Assembly (NCBI GenBank): GCA_000442015.1
Contig: KE560841.1
Coordinates: 1 to 45,887, forward strand
DNA: 45,887 nt
Origin: Rozella allomycis CSF55
Lineage: Eukaryota
Reading direction: 5' to 3'
Made by a program: the position numbers and the translations under genes. How positions within the stretch are numbered: position 1 is the first letter of the stretch; each line of letters opens with the position of its first letter. The notes beneath the pieces are model-generated. The model did no database searches, had not been told where the DNA came from, and was given only the letters and a program-made list of their open reading frames with translations. Below, in pieces: positions 11,601 to 41,448 of this stretch.

Positions 11601-14600
11601 ACCATTTTCTATCATTAATACTAAATCCTTTTGAAATAGATTTCAATGATAGATTTTGATTCTCAAACGATAAATTAGCCACTTCTAAAAATAGCTTTGA
11701 TGATTCTTGTAATTCTTTATTTCTAACAACACCATACGATTGTCCATTCTGGATACTCTTCTGTACAATAAACATTTCAGCTGGAGCACTTCCAAAATCA
11801 TGAAATGGTGGATAAAACGTTAATTCTCTGTACATTCTACCATTGAGCCTTATAGAAAGAGTCTTTAACAATTTTGGATCAAAAACATTTTCAGTGTCTG
11901 TCAAGATGGGGACATAGTGGAAATTTAATAAACTAGATTTTATGCTTTGAAAAGAACTATTCAATCCAACCTTGAATTGATAACAATAAAATGGTCTTAG
12001 AATGGGCAGTTCAGCACTTCCAAGCATGTTTAATGGAACATTATCTTTTCCTTTAAGAATCAAAGTATTTTTCATAGTTTTATTACTTGCTGAACCTTTA
12101 TTTTTCAAGGTTAAAGTAATTTACTTAATTGTTTTCTATCAAAACGAGTTGTAGGTATTTTAACGTTAATTAATCTAGCAGAGAGCCCCAATCGTTTTAA
12201 TATTTGAAGTTTAGATTTAATTATTTTCCATCCATCTTTCTTTATTGTTGGGATTTGAATGTTATTTTTTTCTAAGTCAGCCGCTGAAAAGGAACACAGT
12301 TGTACAAACATGACCAATTTTTTATAGGAGAATATTTAATTACTTGAATGGTAGATGGTACATTTGAAGACAACGCTTTGATTTGTAATGGCAGAGTTCC
12401 TCTATTGCTTACAAACATATCAACCCATGCGATACACCCATCTCTATATCTTCCAAAATCTATTTCTTTTCTTGTTTCACCGTTTGGTTTATCAAAGGCC
12501 AATTCAACTGTTCCACCAACACCGCGTAAATCTATTAAATGGACTGAATTTTCATAAAATATCTGGCATTTTTGATTAAATGTCTTGCTTTCCAAAGGAT
12601 TGAATGATAATTTAATTTGACTGGAATTATCTTTTAATCTAGATCTAATCTATTCTAGTACCTGGCTTAATTTCAAGAAATTTATTGTCGATATCAAATG
12701 GAGGTTTAGACAATAATGTTAATTCTGTTGATTGTATCCCCTTGTTTGACAAAGTAAAAACATTGTTGATTGGATTATTAATCAGAGTGTTTCCTATATT
12801 GCAAATATTAATGAAATACCAAAATCAATATAATCAGGTGCGCCTAGAATGTTACAAGGGAAGAATCTAATCTGAATAAACTAAAAAGAAATTACTGTCC
12901 ACGCATCACAATAGATGCAACTCTAACAGCTTTACTATTTCTATCCAATGTTTCTTTAATATAAATTTCAGCAAAGCTTTCATAATAACCATTTGATTTA
13001 ACATTAAAGTTGATCTGTAAAGGAAATGTCTCCAATGGGTTAACATCGCCTGAATACAATTGTGGCTCAAATGGCAGCAGATGGCTTTTAGAAAACTTTA
13101 TGGACCAGCTGTAAGAAACATTTCCAATGTTAATCAACAACAAAGTTTGAACTGAAGTTTTCAACATTGAATTTGTATTTTCAATAAAACCAAAATCTAA
13201 AACAATTTCTTCATCTATATTCTTAGAAGCAGGTAACACTAAGAAATCAGGCCTATTTTTACCGATTAATTGACAGAAACCAACACTTGAATCCTTTTCA
13301 GATAAAGTCGCAGCAAACCCATAACATGTTGCCATATCAGGTCCATTGGGTGGAGTGTAGATTATTTCAATGTTTCCAGAATCATTAGATATCAATGAAC
13401 GAGACGGTGGATCAACAGTAAACCCAGTTGAGCTTATAAATGAAATATTGTGATTTTCTTTGCTTTTATTTTGAACTATTGAATTAACAACAACAGGCTT
13501 CCTATCACTTTTTGGTTTGAAAATAACAGATTCAAACTTGAAATTAATTAATGAAGTATAATTTTGAATAGGCAAAACATCTAAATTGTCTAAATGAAAC
13601 AATCTTGTCATGGACTCTTCATTTGCAGGATATTCGTCTATAATACGTCTTGGATGGGCAATCCATGTTTTCAAAAAGTCAAAATTATTGAAATTAAATG
13701 ATTCGGCCAAAGTTGAAAAGGGTTGAACACAAATTCCAACTAGATAGATGGAATGATTAAATGGGCCAGGTTCAATACTAATTGTTTTGTTTTCATTAAT
13801 TTTAAGAGACAAATCAATCTTTTTTAATAAAGGACCTCTTCTTAACCCTTTGAATTTAAAAGACAGTGCAAGGGAAGATCGACCTCTTATTAACGTTTCT
13901 TCGTTTAAATTGACACTAAAGAAAGAAGATTCATTTTGATCAACTTGCAATCCATTTATTTTAAATTTTAAATCATACGTTGACTGATTAATTATAACAG
14001 TGTTGATTGTTTCACTCATTGAATGGAATACAGGTTTGAAGAATACAAAATCATACAATGGAATAAACAGTGGCTGACCAACAAATGCGTGAATAAAAAT
14101 AGGAATATTCTGAAACCCTGGGCAAACTAATTCTATAAATGAATTAAATTGATTTTCATTTTGTATTTTCAATTGAATTTCAACTGTATACGCAGTCTGT
14201 GGGGCTATGCGAATTCTATTATCTATTGTAATGCATTCATCTCTTGTAAACAACGCTATTGTTAAAGGATTATTACTTAGATTCATTATGGTTAACAATT
14301 TCTTATAACTTTGATCTTTTTCGATAATACCAAAATCTATTTTATAGGCATCTTCAATATTTGCATAATGGGAAGATGCATAATAGATACTTTTTAAAAG
14401 ATTTGTATTAGTTTCAGATATTTTTGTCTTTTTTTGATCCCCTTGAATCTTTTTATAGAATTTCTTTAGAAACATTGTTCGCTCTCTAGAAACTCCACTT
14501 GATCCAATATCCAAAACTTCATCATCTTCAACATACAGAGCCAAAGGTACTCCACAGAATCCATTTAATTCAACTGAAATTATTTCTCCGCCCGGGGCTT

Positions 14601-20745: not shown

Positions 20746-23700
20746 TTATTTAAATGAATCGATTTCTATGATTGCCAGTAACTTGATGACGCAAGGTAAA
20801 TCTAATTGAACTGGCAATTCTTTTGATGGTGGTACAGGAGTGAATCTATATTCTAAAGTTGATGGATAATCTAAAGTTATCTTTTTCGGGTATTCCATGT
20901 TTTTATAATGTAATTGAATTGCAGCGTCAATGTATTCCAGTGGAACTTTAGAAACAAATATTGTACATAGTTTTCTGAGTTGGATTGGAGACAAAAGGCT
21001 GTAAATATTAGTATCGTGGAATGTATCTTTTCTTGAAGGGTCTTGCAATAAAAATCTAGAATATAGTGTTGTTTTCATTGTACTTTATCATTTCACTGAA
21101 TGTATTTAAACAATCGTGAGTAGATTCAAGCTTATGGTCAACTTTTGTAGAGTGATATATTTTGTTACTTTGCCAATTCCTTAATAAGTTTAAATTGTAT
21201 TGTATTTGAAAGCATCTTGATTGATCAATTAGTTTAGAAATTTACCTGGAATTAATAAACTTTGATATAATTTACCTATGTTTCAGAGAACATTTCGGCT
21301 TACCTAGTTTAAATATGATAACTTGCATACCTATTTATTGTTGCAAAACCATTTCTCATTAAGAATTGATTCACAAGTGCTACTTGTATATTTGAAAAAA
21401 TGTTTATGAATAAACACTCTATTAAATGTAAACTTGAATGATTTTCTTTTAATTCTTTGTAAACTTTGTCCATGATGTCGATTAGGTCACTTAAAGTTGG
21501 AGGTTTGTGCAAGTAGCTCTTTTTGTAATCTTTTTCTTTTAAATTTATGAGATTTTGATCATCTAAAATAGAAAACTGTGAAACTTCAATTCTCTTTTTG
21601 AAATCTTTGACCAATTCTTGAACAAGAGTGTTGCATAAATCCCCTAGTCGAACTGTCAAGGAATTCCAGGCAGAGTGTAAAATAGATTCATCGTTTATTA
21701 AACTGGAAGATTTTATTGAATTCAAGTTAAATTGGAAAGAAGTTAGATGATTTCCAAGGTTTGAATAGTGAATCAGTTGGGAAAGAAGAGACAATTTTTG
21801 AATTGATTTTAAGTGATCAGAAAATTTATTACTCAAGAGAGACAGCATACCGAATGCCCAGCAAGAAAAGAAAAAGAATGAAGAAACTTGAGACAGTAGA
21901 GGCTCTGAAAGGTTATCTAAACTAATTTCTTGGAATAAATTTGGATCTGAGATGAATTCTTTGATGTGATTTCTAAGAGAATATTGAGCCAAAATGTCTG
22001 TAGAGTTGTTTATACTATCGATTTCAGAAAGTGAGTTGGATAAAGATTTATTTTCTTGTTTTATTTCTTTATTTTCTGAGATTAATTTAAAATTTTCATT
22101 TCTTAAATAATCGTTTGTTTCTTGAATCTTGTTCATTTCTAATGTTTTTTGATTTAATAGATCTGTTAATTGTGACACTTTGGCGTTAAGTTCGTGTACT
22201 TTATTTGTTAGCTCAATAACTTTATTTTCTAAATGATAATTTCTTTCATTTATTCTATTCATGCTTTTAGCTTCTTCTCTTAATTTTATTAATTCTCTTT
22301 TAGCGTTTCTGCACTTTACCAATCGTTGGATTTTCTTTATAGACTCAATGTCTTCAATTCTTTGTTGTTGAAATATTATCCCTCTAATTTTACATTGTAT
22401 TTTTACAACAACAATTTCAAGTTTACGTTTCTTAAATTGAGAATCAACATTGTACTTTCTAATAATATTCTGCAGTTGTAAAATCAGTTTCAATTTCTTT
22501 AATCTATTATTTAATTGGATTCTCTTTCTGATTTCAACTTGTATTTTTATTGTTATCTTTTTCTTTTTAGCGTCAACAAATCTATTTCTGAAAATTCTAG
22601 ATTTGATTAAACCCTGGATCACAAACAAATTTTTCATGAAAAGATTAAACTTGGTTCTTATCAAACAACCTTTAAACCATTTCTGAATCAACAATGCTGC
22701 ACTCTCCATTTTATCATCTCTCGCTTTCTCAATGAACGCCATCTAATAAAGAATGTTTGAAATAGAATTACTTGGCCTACCCTGAAGAATATTCTTGTTT
22801 TCCCAATTTGATAATCCAGTGGCCCTATTGATGACGTTACAGATTTTAAAATTGATTCGGCTATTACTCTTGAATCGTCAGACTTCACACAGGAAAGCAT
22901 TGAAAACCTTTAATAATTAACATTTCAAAATTACCTATCATTGAATTCTTCAAGATTAAATTTTATTGGATACCCGGCGCAACTTATTCTTATTGTCTCC
23001 AGAATCCCACAAGCCCTCAATTGCTGAATCACATACAAATTATCGAAATAAAAAGGCTTCTTTTCTTCATTTGGCTTAATACATCGAATATAATGCGTTT
23101 CTGTTGAATTTATTGTTTCCATTAAAGAATGTAATGATGTCTTTATCAAAAGGAACTATTTGAGTACTTTAAATTGCAAACTCAACGATCTCTTGGACCC
23201 TTTTTCACATTCGCGTTTTGGTAAAAGCCATTTCAATTTATCAGGCTCTAGCAATAACGATCTCACTTGTTCTGAAATGTTATCCTTATTCTTTTCAATA
23301 AACCCTTGACCATGATATGTCACAGAATACGCGAAATGATGAATAAGAAAATTACATCCGCCAAATCTTGGTTTACTAAAACATTTATTTTTGTTGTCTG
23401 CAAATGATTGGTAGAGTTTATTAACAAAAGACTTGTTCAAACTATTGTCAATAGTTACTTGGTCTGATCCTCTAGGCAAGTAAGATTCTTCATCCAGCAG
23501 ACTTAAAATCCCGCTTCTGTTTTCAATCATTTCAATACAATCAGAATTATCATTAAATTCTATAAATGACCAATTAATGCCTTCCTCTACATACAACTAG
23601 GTATTAAATGTAACAGAGCATTACCTTTTGTTCTAAATCAAAAACATGCCGATTAAATTCTTGTTGCAGCTTTTCATTAGCATAGTTTATACAGAATTGC

Positions 23701-25156
23701 TCAAACGAGTTATTCTCAAAATATTCAAATCCATAAATGTCTAAAACTGCAATGAATCTCGTGGCATCTTTTTTAGTTACAAGGCTTATATTGATTTGAT
23801 TTACTAGCCCTACATAGAAATTCAAAATATTCCATACATTCAAACAGGCTCGAATACAAAAATTTAGAAATCCCATCCCTTACTTGGACCACTTGATGGT
23901 CTTCAAGTTGACTCTCAATACTTTCATTTCTCATCTTTATTAGCCGATGTGTCATCCACTTTTTAAGTTCAATCATGTCAACTCCTATCAATCTATGAAT
24001 AATATTCAAATTTCTGGTAATTGGCTTCTCTTTGTCCAATTCATCCACTTCAACATTTCCAAGATAAAGTATGGCAGCTAAAACCTGGAAAATCCATTGT
24101 TGCTTCTCCTTGTCAATTTTCATCAGAGTTAACGCACTGTATAACTTTATATATTTTCAATACTTTATTGTATCCTCGAAATCTTTCTTATCATCAACAT
24201 CTTTAATTCTTGTTGTCCCCGATAAATATTGAAAATCACTAGCATCACCAATCCCATATTCGGCTTTATACCCATCTTCTAGTCCTGCACAAAGTTGATA
24301 AAATATGTGATAATTCCGCTCATTTTTGGCTTGTCTAATAACTCTTGATCGCTCTAGCAAATAAGTTCGGATTCTCGCCCCATTTAGACTATTAAACTAC
24401 TCATACCTACAATAGAATTTCGCTCATCAAAAAGAATCTCTACAAACTTTCCAAATCTACTACTATTGTCATTCCTAGTGGTTTTCGCATTTCCAAACGC
24501 CTCCATTATTGGATTTGTTGAAAGAACTTGTTCCTCAATTCCAGAGTTTTTCTGGCAATCAGCGCTTGCAAAATATCGCATCATGAATTTTGCACTAACC
24601 TGTATATACATTCTCAAAAACTATCTCTACCGTTTTGCCACTTCCAGATTCTCCAGATATAACCACACTTTGGTTTTTATTATACCTCCTCAATTTACTA
24701 AACGCATCCTCTGCAATCGCATACAAATGCGGCTCAAGTTCTCCTTTTGATCTGCCATTATAGACTTGAACAACCTCTTCTCCGTAACAATCTAATCTGC
24801 TAAATGGATTCAAAGCTATCAAAACTATTCCTGAATACGTGTAAATCATTCCTTGATCATATCGATACTTTAACACTTCAAGAACTATTATACTGCATAA
24901 CCATTCTTACCGCCAGGTTCATGAAGAAAATTCATCACTGTTAAATCATCGAATTCAGATGTCGCGTTTTTTAAATGTGGAAGCTCTTTCAACACTGTAA
25001 TTTCCCCAGCTTCATCCTCAACTTTAACTATTTCATGCTCAATTGACTTTATGGTAGCCACTTTCCAACCCTGCTTCTCACAAGCTATATGTACTTGACT
25101 TCCCTATCAAATAATGAAGCAAGAATTACATTTTTATAGAGATCTCGTTTGCTCAT
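20746..25156 (-). CDS. MYO5: Class V myosin (motor, IQ repeats, coiled coil, DIL domain)
   Basis: [59 protein letters not shown] motifs; after splicing [12 protein letters not shown] (DIL). Starts [13 protein letters not shown]. Confidence 0.95.
21216..21330 (-). other. Compound intron of four abutting GT..AG mini-introns (27+28+30+30 nt)
   Basis: Three internal AG|GTAA junctions at 21304/21303, 21276/21275 and 21246/21245; removing all 115 nt restores the DIL reading frame. Confidence 0.85.
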
Positions 25157-25289
25157 CAATTTCCTGAATTTTCGGAATCCTTCTTTCTAGTTGGAATTTT
25201 CATTTTTTAGCGAACAGTTTGTGATATATCACTGAATTTGACCTGTCAAATAGATATAAAGACTTTCACTGTTAATTGTAAGGAAAACA

Positions 25290-36831: not shown

Positions 36832-39800
36832 TTATAGGTCAGCTATGATGCTTAGGAACTTGTCATACGTAATTTGAGCTTGCTTGTATCGTTGAACAAT
36901 TGATTCTAAATCTTTAGAGCGCTGCAAAGCACTGATAGGGTAAAATTATTAAAATTACGGGTGTTGATAAGACAAGTGCATGATTGCTTGGACGGTAGGT
37001 TTATGTGCATTAATAATAGTGGCGCGTATTAGGGCAGCCAGTGAACAATTTGATATAATGACATTGGATTGGAGTGGGCCAAAGAAAGATATCTAATAAA
37101 ACGGAATGAAAAGGTTACCTTTTGGTCGCGATAAACGTCTATCGCGAAAAGACCAGATTTTAGAGGATTGATTACAATGACAACATTTCCAAAGTCCCCT
37201 GAAATAGTGTTAGGTTTGTAAGGTTTGTTGTTTTCATTCCAAACAATGTGAATGTGATCGTTGCCGATATGGCGTTTCTTTTTTATATTTTTTGGGTCAT
37301 TATGATCAGAGGGTATCAAGGTAACGTCGTGGAACATTATTTCACAGAAAGAATCGCAATAATAAATTGAATATTTTCCTGTTGTCAAATTTCTGTCTAG
37401 ACCACCCATGTAGCCTAAATGTGATTCCAAGTCAACCTTTGTGATTACAGAGAAAACCTTTACTGTCCAGCCTAGGCTAGAAACAAACTTTCTATATGAT
37501 ATGCTTGGGTTTTGATTTGCCAGTATAGAAGATTCATATTCCTGATCTTTAGCGACATAAATCAAAGCAACTTTGACTAATTCCCTGCAAGGTTTCTTAT
37601 CAAGAGCTTTAATGTCCCGAAGAAGATTTTGGTTATCAGAAAAGATGGAAAATGAGCCTTTTCGAAAGACATCTGCGTCGAGAAACCCAAATTGACTTAG
37701 GAAAACTCTCCCAACGTTCACTTTCTTCTCAGGTACAGTAGGCGGCTCAACTTTTTCGAATGGCAGACATGTTTTAGTTTATCAAAGAAATTACTTTGAA
37801 TTTATTGTTTGAGATTCCAAATTGTTCATTCTTTCTTGGATTTCTTGGATGCTATCTTCTAGGGCCATTGGCGGGGGCAGAGTTTGGGTCAATGAAAACC
37901 CTTCCTTGATAAAGCAGTCAGGATGAGTTTCTTCAAGGCTACAATTGCAAGCTAATTTTGTTACTATTTTAAACATTCAAGTAGCATGTCGCATTTTTCA
38001 GAATTATTGGAATTTGTCCACAGGGGAATTTCACCTTTATTTCTTTTAAATCCATAATTAATTTCTTCCATTTTATTGCATTTAATATCAAATGGTTGCA
38101 ATTCGGCTGTTTTATAAGAACAGTCAGATTGAAGTGGAGTCACTGACCATGTAAATTTACCAAAGTTGTTCCTTGTGACAATTAAAATTGAATCTTCCTT
38201 GTAAACAACAGACATAATTAAAGAATCGTTGACACAAAAATGTTTGCATGCAGCAACAGGATCGTCAACCCAATTTGATCCTAATATTTCTGGAATAGGA
38301 TTAGGAAAAGAGTGTAAATGATGGGCAGCGTGCATAAAGACAAACTCTGCCAAATGTTTTAAAAGAACTTCATCATTATCTATTGTCTTTGACTTTTTGT
38401 TTTTTGTGTAATTTAAACAAAATTCAATTGCTTCGAAAAGTTGACCTTTTGTTTTCTGATTATTTAATAATTCAGGAAATTTGAAAAGCCACTTGGAAAT
38501 TTCGGAAAGTAAAGAATAGACTATCGGTTTTGATGTCTCTATGTGATGAAAAATAGCAGCCGTTAATTTCTCTATAATATTAATGGATTCTAAAATATCA
38601 AGTTTATCTATGAATAAACTGATGCAATTGACAGTCGCAGACAAGACTGATTCAACATTATTAGTGAACAGTTCATTTAATAACAATGAGAGTGTAGATT
38701 CTTTGAAGAAAATATTCTCAAGAGTCATCATTGTTATAATGAATAGGATTGACATTGAAATTTCACTATTGTCGTGTTGGCAATCCTTTGCTACAATTAA
38801 AGAAGCGTAAAGAGATTTCTATGCAAAAATGAATAAATTTGGTACTTCAAGTTCATTGTATGTGGTATCACCGCATTTTATAGAACTAAACAACTTACAA
38901 AATGAGAAGATTGAGTTTATGAGCGAAATGCAACTCTTTCTTATTGTGAATTCTTGATTTGGCTTTGTTAAAATGGTTTCAAAGTTTTTCAAATATTTGG
39001 GAATGAGAATGTTAACCCCTGGAATATCCAAAGTGAATATACTTTGTGAATGGTTTATTAGAGAATATAGAATATTTGATTCTTTGTATTCCAACCCCTC
39101 TAAATGTACAATTGAATAAGTTACTTGATTTAGAGTTAAAATCATTTTCTCTTTATATTTAAAATCAACATCTTCAATTTTTTGAGATATTATTCTGGCC
39201 AGGGTCGCAAATGCTATTGATTTACCGGGGTTGAACATTCTACAATTTCCCATGGTTCAATCCTGTTACTGTGATAGCAAAGTAGAGTCTATAATTGTGT
39301 CTATAAAGCTTGATAATTTTATTTTTGAATCCCTTGCTCCAATGTCATACTTTTTCAAAAACAATAAAATCTCGACCAGGGAAGCGATACAAGATAGTGA
39401 CTCTGAATGTATTTCTGGTCTCTTTAATTAATTGACCTCTTATTTTCTACTTGGATGTCATTGATATTTCCAATTAAATTGTAAACTTTAAACCACAGAG
39501 TATCGGTGACTTTGATGTTAAAATCCCGGAAAAGATTTTCTTCGACATCATCTAAAGATTCAACACAACTTGCAAAGAGCCCTTTTAACGAAACAATTCC
39601 GTCTGAATTCGACTTTTAAAATTTCGAAATTCTATTACGAATTCTTGAGACATTGATGGAACCATAGAATTCTTTTTCCCAGCATTAAATTGCATGTAGA
39701 GAGATACAAAATCTACTTCAAATTCATCAATAAAATATCTTCTGGTTAAATACAAGATTGATTTCTATTCTAATGACGCGAATACATTACTTTCCATTGA

Positions 39801-41448
39801 GACACTACCGCGTGCCATTTAGTGACTTGAACAACAGATCTATTCAAAAAACTCCAAATTTCATCGTTAAGTATTCCAGATCTAATCCATACGCCATAAA
39901 CAGTCTAATCAATTAAATAGTTTGTCTCTTTTACATGGATCAGAATATCACAAATTTCGTCGGCTTGAGTAGGATCAGTAATGATTGAATATTTATTGGA
40001 AGGAATTAAATGGGATTCTACAACTTTTAACAAACAATTCATCAACTTTTCCCTGTTTGTTTTCCAAGTTGATTTTTACCATGTCATTCTTTGAATATTT
40101 TCTCTTTTACAGATAGAATGAATAAATGAAAACGCTTTTTTGTATGATTTAAGTTGTTCTTTTGTTAAACCCTTTGATGGTCTGCCATCAAATATTTGAA
40201 ATACATAACCCAAATATGTTCTTAAACATGAATTGAACAATTCTTTCACATTATCACCCGAATCATTTAATTCATTTCTTAAGTTCCCTTGTTCAGCTTC
40301 ATTCAGCATAATATCTTGTTTCATATCTTCTCTGTGGCAATACTCTCCAAAACACGTTCTTATTCTTAAATACTCTAATTCCTGGGTGCTGAAGCATTAA
40401 AACTTTACTTTATTGCAAAGAATCTCAAGGAAATTAATCACAATCTCTATAGCATCAATCTTGGAAAATGGACACGATAGCCCATAGTATACCACTCGGT
40501 GTAGCTCTTCCATGCTACCCTCCATCAACTTGGCTAGCATATTAATTGACACACCGTTAGATATTCCATCTCCAAAAAATTGAGTATGTTTATTAATGAA
40601 TTCTTTTTCATCATGAAAAATCCATCCGATAAAATATTTAACAAAGACTTCTTTAATGCTGCTGTCATTCTTGTCGTTAAATGCTTTATTCATCAGAAGT
40701 TTAATAAAGGAAAAAATATATTCTAAAGATTGATCATCCATTGACTCATTGCAAAGAAACTCAAAAATATCTTCAAGCGAAGTTTTCATATCAGTTTCAA
40801 GGTTTTCATGACTGATGGCTGGTATAAACGGTTCACTTTCAATATCAATTTATATTTAATATGTTTATTACTTGACTCACCAACAATTTGATATAGCGAA
40901 GACATGAACAAGTCTGACAAATTCTTTGGAGTCTTTTCTCCACATGTTTTCAACACACTCATAATTATTTGCAACCCACTCGTTCTAATCTTCACATGCC
41001 CTTTGTACGTTAGCAATTGTCTTAAAACATTTTCTTTCTTCATAATACAGTAACTATTACCTAACTGGGAAAACCAATCATCAACGGCGCTATACACACT
41101 GTCATTGACTAACTGAAGGCAAAAATTAACCCAAAGTTGCAGAACTTTAAATAGTTTTAACACTTCTGAAAAGTCTTTGCTCGAAATGATCGTAGTTTTC
41201 GTCTCTTTAGTTTCTAATTCATCGTGATTTTATTAATTACTCTTCAACTTTTCATAACGCAATAGATAACTTTCAATGCATAACGAAAATATAAGTTGCT
41301 CATTTTCTTTGTAGAATTGTTCCATTTCCACCAAAGAAGTCGTTTCCATTAACGCAAATAGTGTAGATATTCTCATTTTCGGTTTTTGCCTTTCATCGAA
41401 AAAGTTTTTCGCCTTTTTCAACAATTTGGGATCGATTGATGTGCTCAT
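36832..41448 (-). CDS. Ral GTPase-activating protein alpha / tuberin-like protein with C-terminal Rap-GAP domain; about 16 mini-introns
   Basis: KVALIYVAKDQE, FVSSLGW, GYMGGLDRN, KKRHIGNDHIHIVWNE, GDFGNVVIVINP; exons joined in frame from ATG 41448. Confidence 0.85.

What the first reader, a model, noticed from the sequence alone, without database searches (positions are those of the whole stretch)
24381..24406. GT-TG intron in the conserved myosin motor domain
Seen (minus strand): TCT ATT GTA G | gtatgagtagtttaatagtctaaatg | GG GCG AGA ATC CGA ACT TAT TTG CTA GAG. The conserved myosin motif [15 protein letters not shown] is restored exactly by removing 26 nt that end in TG. The internal AG at 18 nt leads to an immediate TAA. 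Protein conservation fixes the boundary, so this is the strongest non-AG acceptor case.
Basis: partly seen in the sequence, partly recalled or inferred. Interest (0 to 1): 0.8.

Follow-up and report, generated by a model that had tools for sequence, protein, structure and literature searches.

The report
Tiny GT-TG intron in Rozella myosin
A 26-base interruption in the motor domain of a myosin V gene of the fungus-like parasite Rozella allomycis looks like one of its usual tiny introns but ends in TG instead of AG, so either the cell splices at a rule-breaking site or this copy of the gene is broken.

Summary
On the minus strand, 24406..24381 reads GTATGAGTAGTTTAATAGTCTAAATG. Removing exactly these 26 nt joins ..NSIV-G to [12 protein letters not shown]. 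The window matches a Rozella allomycis CSF55 contig, and the gene is a myosin V.

Protein conservation fixes the junction:
- 222 of 226 homologues have the same 19-residue spacing.
- Pfam profile coordinates leave room for exactly one residue, the split Gly.

None of the 11 GT-AG options of 15-70 nt keeps the motif. The public annotation uses a 53-nt GT-AG intron that deletes GARIRTYLL.

The element otherwise matches the local intron class: 59 ORF-bridging GTA..AG introns of 25-31 nt, and 14 homology-fixed canonical units in this same gene. DNA contigs from two studies show TG, so it is not a read error.

No RNA data could be found, so splicing at TG is inferred, not shown. The main rival is a broken allele. 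A second haplotype exists whose base at this site I could not see. The first AG at 25 nt or more lies at 33 nt and would frameshift.

My odds are about 0.5 for functional TG use. GT-TG introns are a known rare kind.

In passing, I found that the annotated gene is truncated, and that it contains four abutting mini-introns.

The parts
24381..24406 (-). The 26-nt element, GTATGAGTAGTTTAATAGTCTAAATG. It is a putative tiny spliceosomal intron in phase 1, inside a Gly codon, with a GT donor and a TG end.
   Evidence: Searches show the sequence and the options. Removing it restores [12 protein letters not shown]. TG is present in DNA contigs of runs X1 and X3.
24407..24599 (-). Exon 4 of the myosin gene ([32 protein letters not shown] + G).
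   Evidence: Pfam Myosin_head E 1.9e-24, profile positions 101-166. PDB myosin Vc E 1.5e-21.
24164..24380 (-). Exon 5 (GG + [32 protein letters not shown]).
   Evidence: Pfam Myosin_head E 7.1e-22, profile positions 169-240. PDB myosin Vc E 5.3e-16.
24354..24406 (-). The 53-nt canonical GT-AG intron implied by the public annotation (P0001: ..NSIV|ERSRV..). It would remove GARIRTYLL.
   Evidence: P0001 sequence, enumeration of options, and the gap in the alignment.
24374..24406 (-). The 33-nt GT..AG option. Its AG is the first one ending 25 nt or more from the donor. Using it shifts the frame (E S E L I C, then stop).
   Evidence: Frame 3. AG positions 7, 10 and 18 inside the element. Sequence.
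20746..25156 (-). The whole myosin V gene as I rebuilt it: 13 exons, 3993 nt, 1330 aa, no internal stop. Besides the 26-nt element it has 14 canonical tiny intron units at 11 positions.
   Evidence: Gap-free against 11 fungal myosin V proteins at junctions B-H, J and K. DIL domain hit in the exon at 21062-21241.
21216..21330 (-). Four abutting GTA..AG units (27+28+30+30 nt) between ..GFATINR and CFQIQYNLN.. of the DIL domain. The annotated gene stops here.
   Evidence: It is the only such chain in the window. Chains of 3 or more units occur 0.045 times per shuffle over 200 shuffles.

Best explanation
The 26 nt at 24406..24381 (minus strand) are one of Rozella allomycis's ordinary ultra-short U2-type introns whose 3' AG has become TG (..AAATG|G where the local consensus is ..AAAG|G or ..ATAG|G). 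To make a working myosin V motor, the spliceosome must ligate at this TG.

Inferred mechanism: in this organism introns appear to be defined across a very narrow length window of 25-31 nt from the 5' splice site. No AG lies in that window here. The G at position 26 keeps the terminal-G contact of the second catalytic step, and AGs lie 7 and 27 nt further on. The TG may therefore be chosen at the exon-ligation step, as in human TG-AG tandems.

Shown: the DNA sequence, the intron-like anatomy, the protein constraint that fixes the junction, and that the gene is otherwise intact and under purifying selection.

Inferred: that RNA is actually cut at TG, and in what proportion of transcripts.
For: 1. 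Junction fixed by protein. PDB alignments meet at one Gly. Pfam profile positions 166 and 169 leave one position for Val and one for the split Gly. 222 of 226 homologues have the identical spacing. 11 of 11 aligned fungal myosin V proteins are gap-free across ..I[IVCK]GA[RK]IRTYLLE.

2. No canonical rescue. All 11 GT-AG options of 15-70 nt delete or alter conserved residues.

3. Local intron class. There are 59 ORF-bridging GTA..AG candidates of 25-31 nt, and 14 of them are 26 nt long. The target begins GTATGA and is 26 nt. Its -4 A matches 38 of 59, its -3 A matches 18 of 59, and its -1 G matches 59 of 59. Only the -2 T matches none (0/59).

4. The other 14 intron units of the same gene are canonical, and the rebuilt CDS of 3993 nt is open throughout.

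5. Purifying selection. Of the 39 haplotype differences displayed in the gene, 23 are synonymous, 14 non-synonymous and 2 intronic.

6. TG is real DNA in contigs of two studies.

7. Precedent. TG is the known non-AG 3' splice site of U2 introns, reported in 36 human genes and always within 28 nt of an AG (PMC2374985, abstract and section 12 read). Here AGs end 7 and 27 nt downstream.

8. Weak support. Two more junctions in the window have a typical GTAA donor and no AG at 25-31 nt. Each has a frame-compatible TG at 26-27 nt. The chance rate of such a TG at a given donor is 9 of 59.
Against: - No RNA evidence at all. All four runs laid are DNA contigs without joints.
- No protein in the 5.8-billion-sequence database spans the junction with Rozella's own sequence. 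The best hit is 66% identical.
- In the local census, the used AG is the first AG ending 25 nt or more from the donor in 58 of 59 introns. That AG is at 33 nt here and frameshifts.
- In humans TG is never the sole 3' site, and AG>TG mutants activate neighbouring AGs instead of splicing at TG.
- Runs X6 and X7 carry a second haplotype with 14 differences in 23951-24959. The positions were cut from the table, so the other allele may carry AG.
- The two extra TG candidates have non-typical canonical alternatives: an 87-nt GT-AG and a 41-nt GTC..AG.
- The intron census was selected by length and by AG, so the length rule is partly circular. It is not circular for the 14 homology-fixed units in this gene.
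Confidence: 0.5

Rival explanations
1. Broken or hypomorphic allele. A recent A>T change destroyed the acceptor in the haplotype that became the reference. The spliceosome then uses the next AG, either at 33 nt (frameshift, stop after 6 codons) or at 53 nt (nine-residue deletion). Function would come from the other haplotype, or be reduced.
For: The first-AG-at-25-nt-or-more rule holds in 58 of 59 introns and predicts the 33-nt AG. Human AG>TG mutants do not splice at TG. A second haplotype, about 1.4% different in this kb, dominates runs X6 and X7, and its state at the site is unknown. A very recent mutation would leave the rest of the gene intact, as observed.
Against: The gene shows no other defect across 3993 nt and 14 other intron units. 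The displayed haplotype differences are 23 synonymous to 14 non-synonymous, so both copies were under selection for most of their divergence. No intron of 32 nt or longer is among the 59 census introns, though the census itself was cut at 32 nt. If the two other AG-less junctions are real, three independent A>T hits at position -2 would be unlikely for random loss.
Confidence: 0.3
2. The annotated model is right. A 53-nt GT-AG intron (24406..24354) is the constitutive intron, and the protein lacks GARIRTYLL.
For: It is the only in-frame canonical option with the same donor, and it is the public model P0001.
Against: The 27 nt it discards encode, in frame, G-A-R-I-R-T-Y-L-L. This matches columns that are near-invariant in 222 homologues and identical to GARIRTYLL in 5 of 11 aligned fungal proteins. 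At 53 nt it is outside the 25-31-nt class. P0001 also shows deletions against homologues at junctions A, B, E, F, G, H and I, and it is truncated before the DIL domain, so the model is generally unreliable. Two of the 226 homologues have a similar 13-residue spacing. Both are Cryptococcus gattii models.
Confidence: 0.07
3. Sequence or assembly artefact: the true genome has AG, or lacks the 26 nt.
For: Only the general possibility. Runs X1 and X2 may be the source of the assembly.
Against: Run X3, from another study, has a contig at depth 39 across the site with no difference there. X1 shows depth 481 with 0 differences.
Confidence: 0.03

Closest known systems
TG 3' splice sites of U2-type introns (GT-TG introns; human GNAS, TSPYL2, ARS2; Szafranski et al. 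2007, PMC2374985; Parada et al. 2014, PMC4176328; Sheth et al. 2006, PMC1557818)
   Same: An ordinary U2-type donor, a 3' end of TG with a purine at +1, and AG dinucleotides within 28 nt (here 7 and 27 nt downstream and 8 nt upstream).
   Different: The human cases are alternative sites next to a used AG in long introns, and are never the sole productive site. Here the TG is the only site that gives a functional reading frame. The intron is 26 nt, position -3 is A rather than a pyrimidine, and use in RNA is not shown.
Ultra-short intron systems (Paramecium about 25 nt, Bigelowiella nucleomorph 18-21 nt, Stentor 15-16 nt, microsporidia). Recalled, not checked in a call.
   Same: A very narrow intron length class. 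In this window it is 25-31 nt with a mode of 27. Intron medians among early-diverging fungi are reported down to 29 bp (PMC8042348, passages only; not tied to Rozella in the text I saw).
   Different: As I recall, those systems keep GT-AG strictly. A non-AG acceptor in such an intron is not something I found described.
Public gene model P0001 (Myosin head, motor domain-containing protein, Rozella allomycis CSF55, 1026 aa)
   Same: The same locus and the same donor at 24406.
   Different: It uses the AG at 53 nt and loses GARIRTYLL. It lacks conserved pieces at seven other junctions. It ends before the DIL domain. My model is 1330 aa.
Class V myosins (Myo2p / myosin Va-Vc)
   Same: The best solved-structure matches are myosin Vc and Va. 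The model is colinear with 11 fungal myosin V proteins at 33-39% identity. It has motor, IQ-like, coiled-coil and DIL parts.
   Different: The IQ and DIL hits on single exons fall below Pfam's curated cut-offs. The P-loop reads GESGSGKT where the 11 aligned homologues have GESGAGKT.

Membership tests
Local tiny U2-type spliceosomal introns of this genome | The 5' end begins GTA, followed by a weak A/T-rich consensus. | tested here: met
   59 of 59 census introns begin GTA by selection, as do all 14 homology-fixed units in this gene. The target begins GTATGA.
Local tiny U2-type spliceosomal introns of this genome | Length of 25-31 nt. | tested here: met
   The target is 26 nt. 14 of the 59 census introns are 26 nt.
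Local tiny U2-type spliceosomal introns of this genome | The 3' terminal dinucleotide is AG. | tested here: not met
   It is TG in the window and in DNA contigs of X1 and X3. 0 of 59 census introns have T at -2.
Local tiny U2-type spliceosomal introns of this genome | Removal restores a conserved open reading frame. | tested here: met
Local tiny U2-type spliceosomal introns of this genome | The element is excised from RNA. | not testable with these tools
   No RNA holder is listed, and the laid runs are DNA contigs.
GT-TG introns / TG 3' splice sites (Szafranski 2007) | TG acceptor lying in tandem with an AG within 28 nt. | tested here: met
   AGs end at 18, 33 and 53 nt from the donor, and the TG ends at 26 nt.
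GT-TG introns / TG 3' splice sites (Szafranski 2007) | Pyrimidine at -3 and purine at +1. | tested here: inconclusive
   -3 is A and +1 is G. In the local AG introns -3 is T in 32, A in 18 and C in 8 of 59.
GT-TG introns / TG 3' splice sites (Szafranski 2007) | Use of the TG demonstrated in transcripts. | not testable with these tools
   No RNA data.
U12-type (minor) intron | A rigid donor, [AG]TATCCTT (consensus recalled). | tested here: not met
   The donor is GTATGAGT.
Class V myosin | Myosin motor domain (PF00063). | tested here: met
   Exons 4 and 5 give E 1.9e-24 and 7.1e-22. P0001 gives E 1.5e-157.
Class V myosin | C-terminal DIL cargo-binding domain (PF01843). | tested here: inconclusive
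   The 60-aa exon at 21062-21241 scores 21.6 bits (E 2.4e-4), under the 24-bit cut-off, and covers profile positions 23-69. The alignment to homologues' DIL region is gap-free at junction K.
Class V myosin | IQ motifs after the motor. | tested here: inconclusive
   One IQ match scores 16.2 bits, under the 20.3-bit cut-off.

The most novel reading that the evidence does not exclude
Rozella's spliceosome, working on introns confined to about 25-31 nt, measures length and accepts TG as the sole productive 3' splice site. This would happen repeatedly: the myosin intron plus candidates at 37794..37768 and 40871..40846, about 3 of roughly 66 intron units in 46 kb. That would contradict the rule drawn from human data that TG never serves as the only 3' site. 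It would also make this sister lineage of microsporidia a natural system for AG-independent exon ligation.
Probability: 0.25. Interest if true: 0.7.

Novelty: new member of a known kind. Interest (0 to 1): 0.45.

Why it matters
If the TG is used, this is a constitutive (sole productive) non-AG acceptor in an essential, conserved motor domain. That is stronger than the alternative TG sites known in vertebrates, and it occurs in an organism whose introns sit at the lower size limit of the spliceosome. It would bear on how the 3' site is chosen when there is almost no room between the branch point and the acceptor.

In practice, it shows that GT-AG-only gene prediction has damaged this public model. 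The annotated protein has nine core residues deleted, further conserved pieces missing, and the cargo-binding tail cut off. It probably affects other Rozella genes used in comparisons of fungi and microsporidia.

If the TG is not used, the locus marks a heterozygous loss-of-function allele and is ordinary.

Tried and rejected
RNA and transcript evidence
- No RNA holder is listed for the gene. The four runs laid (X1, X3, X6, X7) are DNA contigs with no joints. The table showed 40 rows, with 38 more not shown.
- I looked for a transcript-derived protein spanning the junction. The exon 5 search of longer proteins gave 1418 hits, but the best is only 66% identical, so none is Rozella's own.

Other sequence sources
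- No whole genome is held for this window.
- There are no earlier notes on this genome.
- I looked for relatives' DNA to test whether the intron position is conserved. The metagenome scan with P0001 matched 146 patterns, and none was confirmed.
- I looked for homologues of the exon upstream of the RapGAP domain to settle the 37794 junction. None was found.

Readings considered and dropped
- 18-nt GT..AG intron: gives an immediate TAA.
- 23-, 29- and 32-nt removals: each adds, drops or alters a residue of the conserved motif, against the conserved spacing.
- 11 GT-AG options of 15-70 nt: none keeps the motif.
- U12-type intron: the donor does not fit.
- Antisense gene: the plus-strand ORF at 24388-24750 has no Pfam family.
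- Ciliate-type stop reassignment: it does not cure a 26-nt frame change, and long ORFs are open under the standard code.

Literature
- Searches for Rozella with splice-site or non-canonical terms found nothing.
- Rozella with intron or intron-length terms gave only density figures (2.5 introns/kb, PMC8476143, passages) and a 29-197 bp range of intron medians (PMC8042348, passages).
- The supplements of those papers were not opened and may hold per-species intron tables.

Full report
**What the window is.** The tail exon of the gene retrieves one near-identical database protein, P0001. It is named 'Myosin head, motor domain-containing protein [Rozella allomycis CSF55]' and is recorded on a contig of 45887 bases, the length of this window. 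Its pieces map back at 98-100% identity. The window is therefore a contig of R. allomycis. It has about 33% G+C and long ORFs open under the standard code.

**The observation.** The minus strand reads ..AAT TCT ATT GTA G|GTATGAGTAGTTTAATAGTCTAAATG|GG GCG AGA ATC CGA ACT TAT TTG CTA GAG.
- The upstream frame runs into a TAA (..IVGMSSLIV*).
- The downstream conserved frame is shifted by 2.
- An 18-nt GT..AG removal gives G|TC TAA.

**Is the junction fixed?** Four independent checks say yes.
1. Against solved structures, the upstream exon aligns to myosin Vc 165-232 (E 1.5e-21) and ends ..IIG. The downstream frame aligns to 226-303 (E 5.3e-16) and starts at the same Gly, G230.
2. Pfam Myosin_head places residue 63 of the 64-residue exon-4 translation at profile position 166, and the first residue of ARIRTY.. 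at position 169. That leaves Val at 167 and the split Gly at 168.
3. Of 232 myosin V-like proteins fetched carry both flanking motifs. Of those, 222 have exactly 19 residues between S[RK]FGK and Y[LM]LE. I12, A15 and T19 are invariant, and G14 is conserved in 221/222. The four exceptions have 13, 13, 21 and 22 residues.
4. A MAFFT alignment of my rebuilt protein with 11 fungal myosin V proteins is gap-free here. Five of the 11 read [10 protein letters not shown] exactly.

So 26 nt must go. The cut can slide by one base either way with the same mRNA, and by two with the same protein. Only GT..TG has a GT donor.

**Canonical alternatives.** I enumerated every frame-compatible GT-start option. 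There are 11 GT-AG introns of 15-70 nt, and all of them remove or change conserved residues. One of them, 53 nt (24406..24354), is what the public model uses: P0001 reads ..[14 protein letters not shown].. and lacks GARIRTYLL.

**The local intron population.**
- The myosin gene has tiny introns at every frame break. I read ten junctions by eye. Nine are GT-AG of 26-31 nt.
- Two window-wide scans for segments that bridge two ORFs of 40 or more or 50 or more codons gave a sharp length peak. GTA..AG candidates peak at 26, 27, 28 and 29 nt, with counts of 15, 20, 14 and 9 of 91.
- After removing double solutions, I listed 59 typical introns of 25-31 nt. A few on the plus strand, opposite minus-strand genes, may be spurious.
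- Their 3' consensus is A(-4, 38/59) T/A(-3, 50/59) A G. The target has A A T G.
- 37 of the 59 contain internal AGs. The used AG is the first one ending 25 nt or more from the donor in 58 of 59.
- This rule is partly circular for the census, which was selected by length. It holds for all 14 canonical units of the myosin gene, whose junctions are fixed by homology.
- For the target the AGs end at 7, 10 and 18 nt, then at 33 and 53 nt. The 33-nt site gives E-S-E-L-I-C-stop.

**DNA check.** No RNA run holds the locus. Four DNA runs were laid.
- X1 may be the source of the assembly. It has depth 481 and no difference in 23951-25200.
- X3 is from another study. Its contig covers 21300-24646 at depth 39. 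It carries nine differences, all listed and none in or near the element.
- The TG is therefore not a read or assembly error.
- X6 and X7 are from the same sample as X1. They carry a second haplotype with 77 differences across the gene, 14 of them in the contig covering 23951-24959.
- The output showed only 40 rows, so the state of that haplotype at 24382 is unknown.
- X3 shares eight of the variant letters at 21345-21676 and none elsewhere, so it is a mosaic of the two haplotypes.

**Is the gene alive?**
- I rebuilt the gene from 25156 to 20746. It has 13 exons, 3993 nt and 1330 codons, with no internal stop.
- It is colinear with fungal myosin V at 33-39% identity and gap-free at junctions B-H, J and K. 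P0001 shows deletions at A, B, D, E, F, G, H and I.
- Of the 39 displayed haplotype differences, 23 are synonymous, 14 non-synonymous and 2 intronic, over 2015 exon bases and 83 other bases.
- That excess of silent changes means both copies have been under purifying selection for most of their divergence. A loss of function, if any, is recent.

**What is known.**
- GT-TG introns are a recognised rare class. Examples are GNAS, TSPYL2 and ARS2 (passages of PMC4176328 and PMC1557818).
- Szafranski et al. verified TG acceptors in 36 human genes (abstract and section 12 of PMC2374985). They found them only as alternatives to an AG within 28 nt, never as the sole site.
- They also note that human AG>TG mutations activate neighbouring AGs rather than the TG.
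- The Rozella element fits the tandem geometry, with AGs 7 and 27 nt downstream. It differs in that only the TG gives a functional product.

**Weighing.**
- For functional use of TG:
  - the intron-like anatomy;
  - the strict protein constraint;
  - an otherwise intact and selected gene;
  - no AG inside the 25-31-nt window;
  - the vertebrate precedent.
- Weak support also comes from two further AG-less junctions with GTAA donors and frame-compatible TG ends: 37794..37768 (27 nt) and 40871..40846 (26 nt). The chance rate is 9 of 59 per donor.
- Both of these have non-typical canonical alternatives, an 87-nt GT-AG and a 41-nt GTC..AG, so they are candidates only.
- Against:
  - no RNA evidence;
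  - the first-AG rule points to a frameshifting site;
  - the human mutant data;
  - an unseen second allele.
- I put functional TG use at about 0.5, a recently broken or hypomorphic allele at 0.3, the annotated 53-nt intron being the true constitutive intron at 0.07, and an artefact at 0.03.

**Seen in passing.**
- The annotated gene stops at 21309-21311, but the DIL cargo-binding domain continues in the next ORF (PF01843, E 2.4e-4).
- Between ..GFATINR and CFQIQYNLN.. lie 115 nt made of four abutting GTA..AG units of 27, 28, 30 and 30 nt.
- This is the only such chain in the window. Chains of three or more units occur 0.045 times per shuffle over 200 shuffles.
- It looks like an intron built of units, each within the spliceosome's narrow size limit.

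**Verdict.** If real, this is a new member of a known rare kind (GT-TG), unusual in being the only productive site in a 26-nt intron. One RT-PCR would settle it.

Noticed in passing
window 21216-21330 (minus strand): Four abutting intron-like units (GTATGC..CTAG 27 nt, GTAAGC..ATAG 28 nt, GTAAAT..CCAG 30 nt, GTAAAT..CAAG 30 nt) separate ..GFATINR from CFQIQYNLN.. of the myosin DIL domain. This is a 115-nt intron built of zero-length-exon units, resembling recursive splice sites. It is the only such chain in the window, and chains of 3 or more units occur 0.045 times per shuffle.
   Followed up: partly
window 20746-25156 (minus strand): The public gene model P0001 (1026 aa) is truncated before the DIL domain. 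Against 11 homologues it lacks conserved pieces at junctions A, B, D, E, F, G, H and I. A manual model with 13 exons gives 1330 aa with no internal stop.
   Followed up: yes
window 37768-37794 (minus strand): In a RapGAP-domain gene, an ORF ends at a typical GTAATTTC donor with no AG at 25-31 nt. A 27-nt removal ending ..ACATG keeps the frame into the ORF that carries PF02145 (E 2.3e-39). The only GT-AG alternatives are 87 and 192 nt.
   Followed up: partly
window 40846-40871 (minus strand): Another typical donor (GTAATAAAC) has a frame-compatible 26-nt TG end (..AAATTG) joining two long ORFs. The canonical alternatives are atypical: 41 nt with a GTC donor, or 53-68 nt. There is no homology to decide between them.
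   Followed up: partly
window 21300-25200: Two haplotypes of the gene occur in the DNA runs. X6 and X7 differ from the window at 77 places, and also have one inserted A in the intron at 23161. X3 is a mosaic of the two. The intron at 23141-23167 carries 3 changes in 27 nt, against about 1.8% divergence in exons.
   Followed up: partly
whole window, both strands: The introns form a very tight class: 59 ORF-bridging GTA..AG candidates of 25-31 nt (mode 27). There is no conserved branch-point motif in the last 14 nt beyond A/T richness and A at -4. 37 of the 59 have internal AGs that are skipped.
   Followed up: yes
window 12284-12309 (minus strand): A 26-nt ORF-bridging intron candidate has a GTT rather than a GTA donor (GTTTGTAC..TTTCAG). 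Non-GTA donors therefore exist but are rare here.
   Followed up: no
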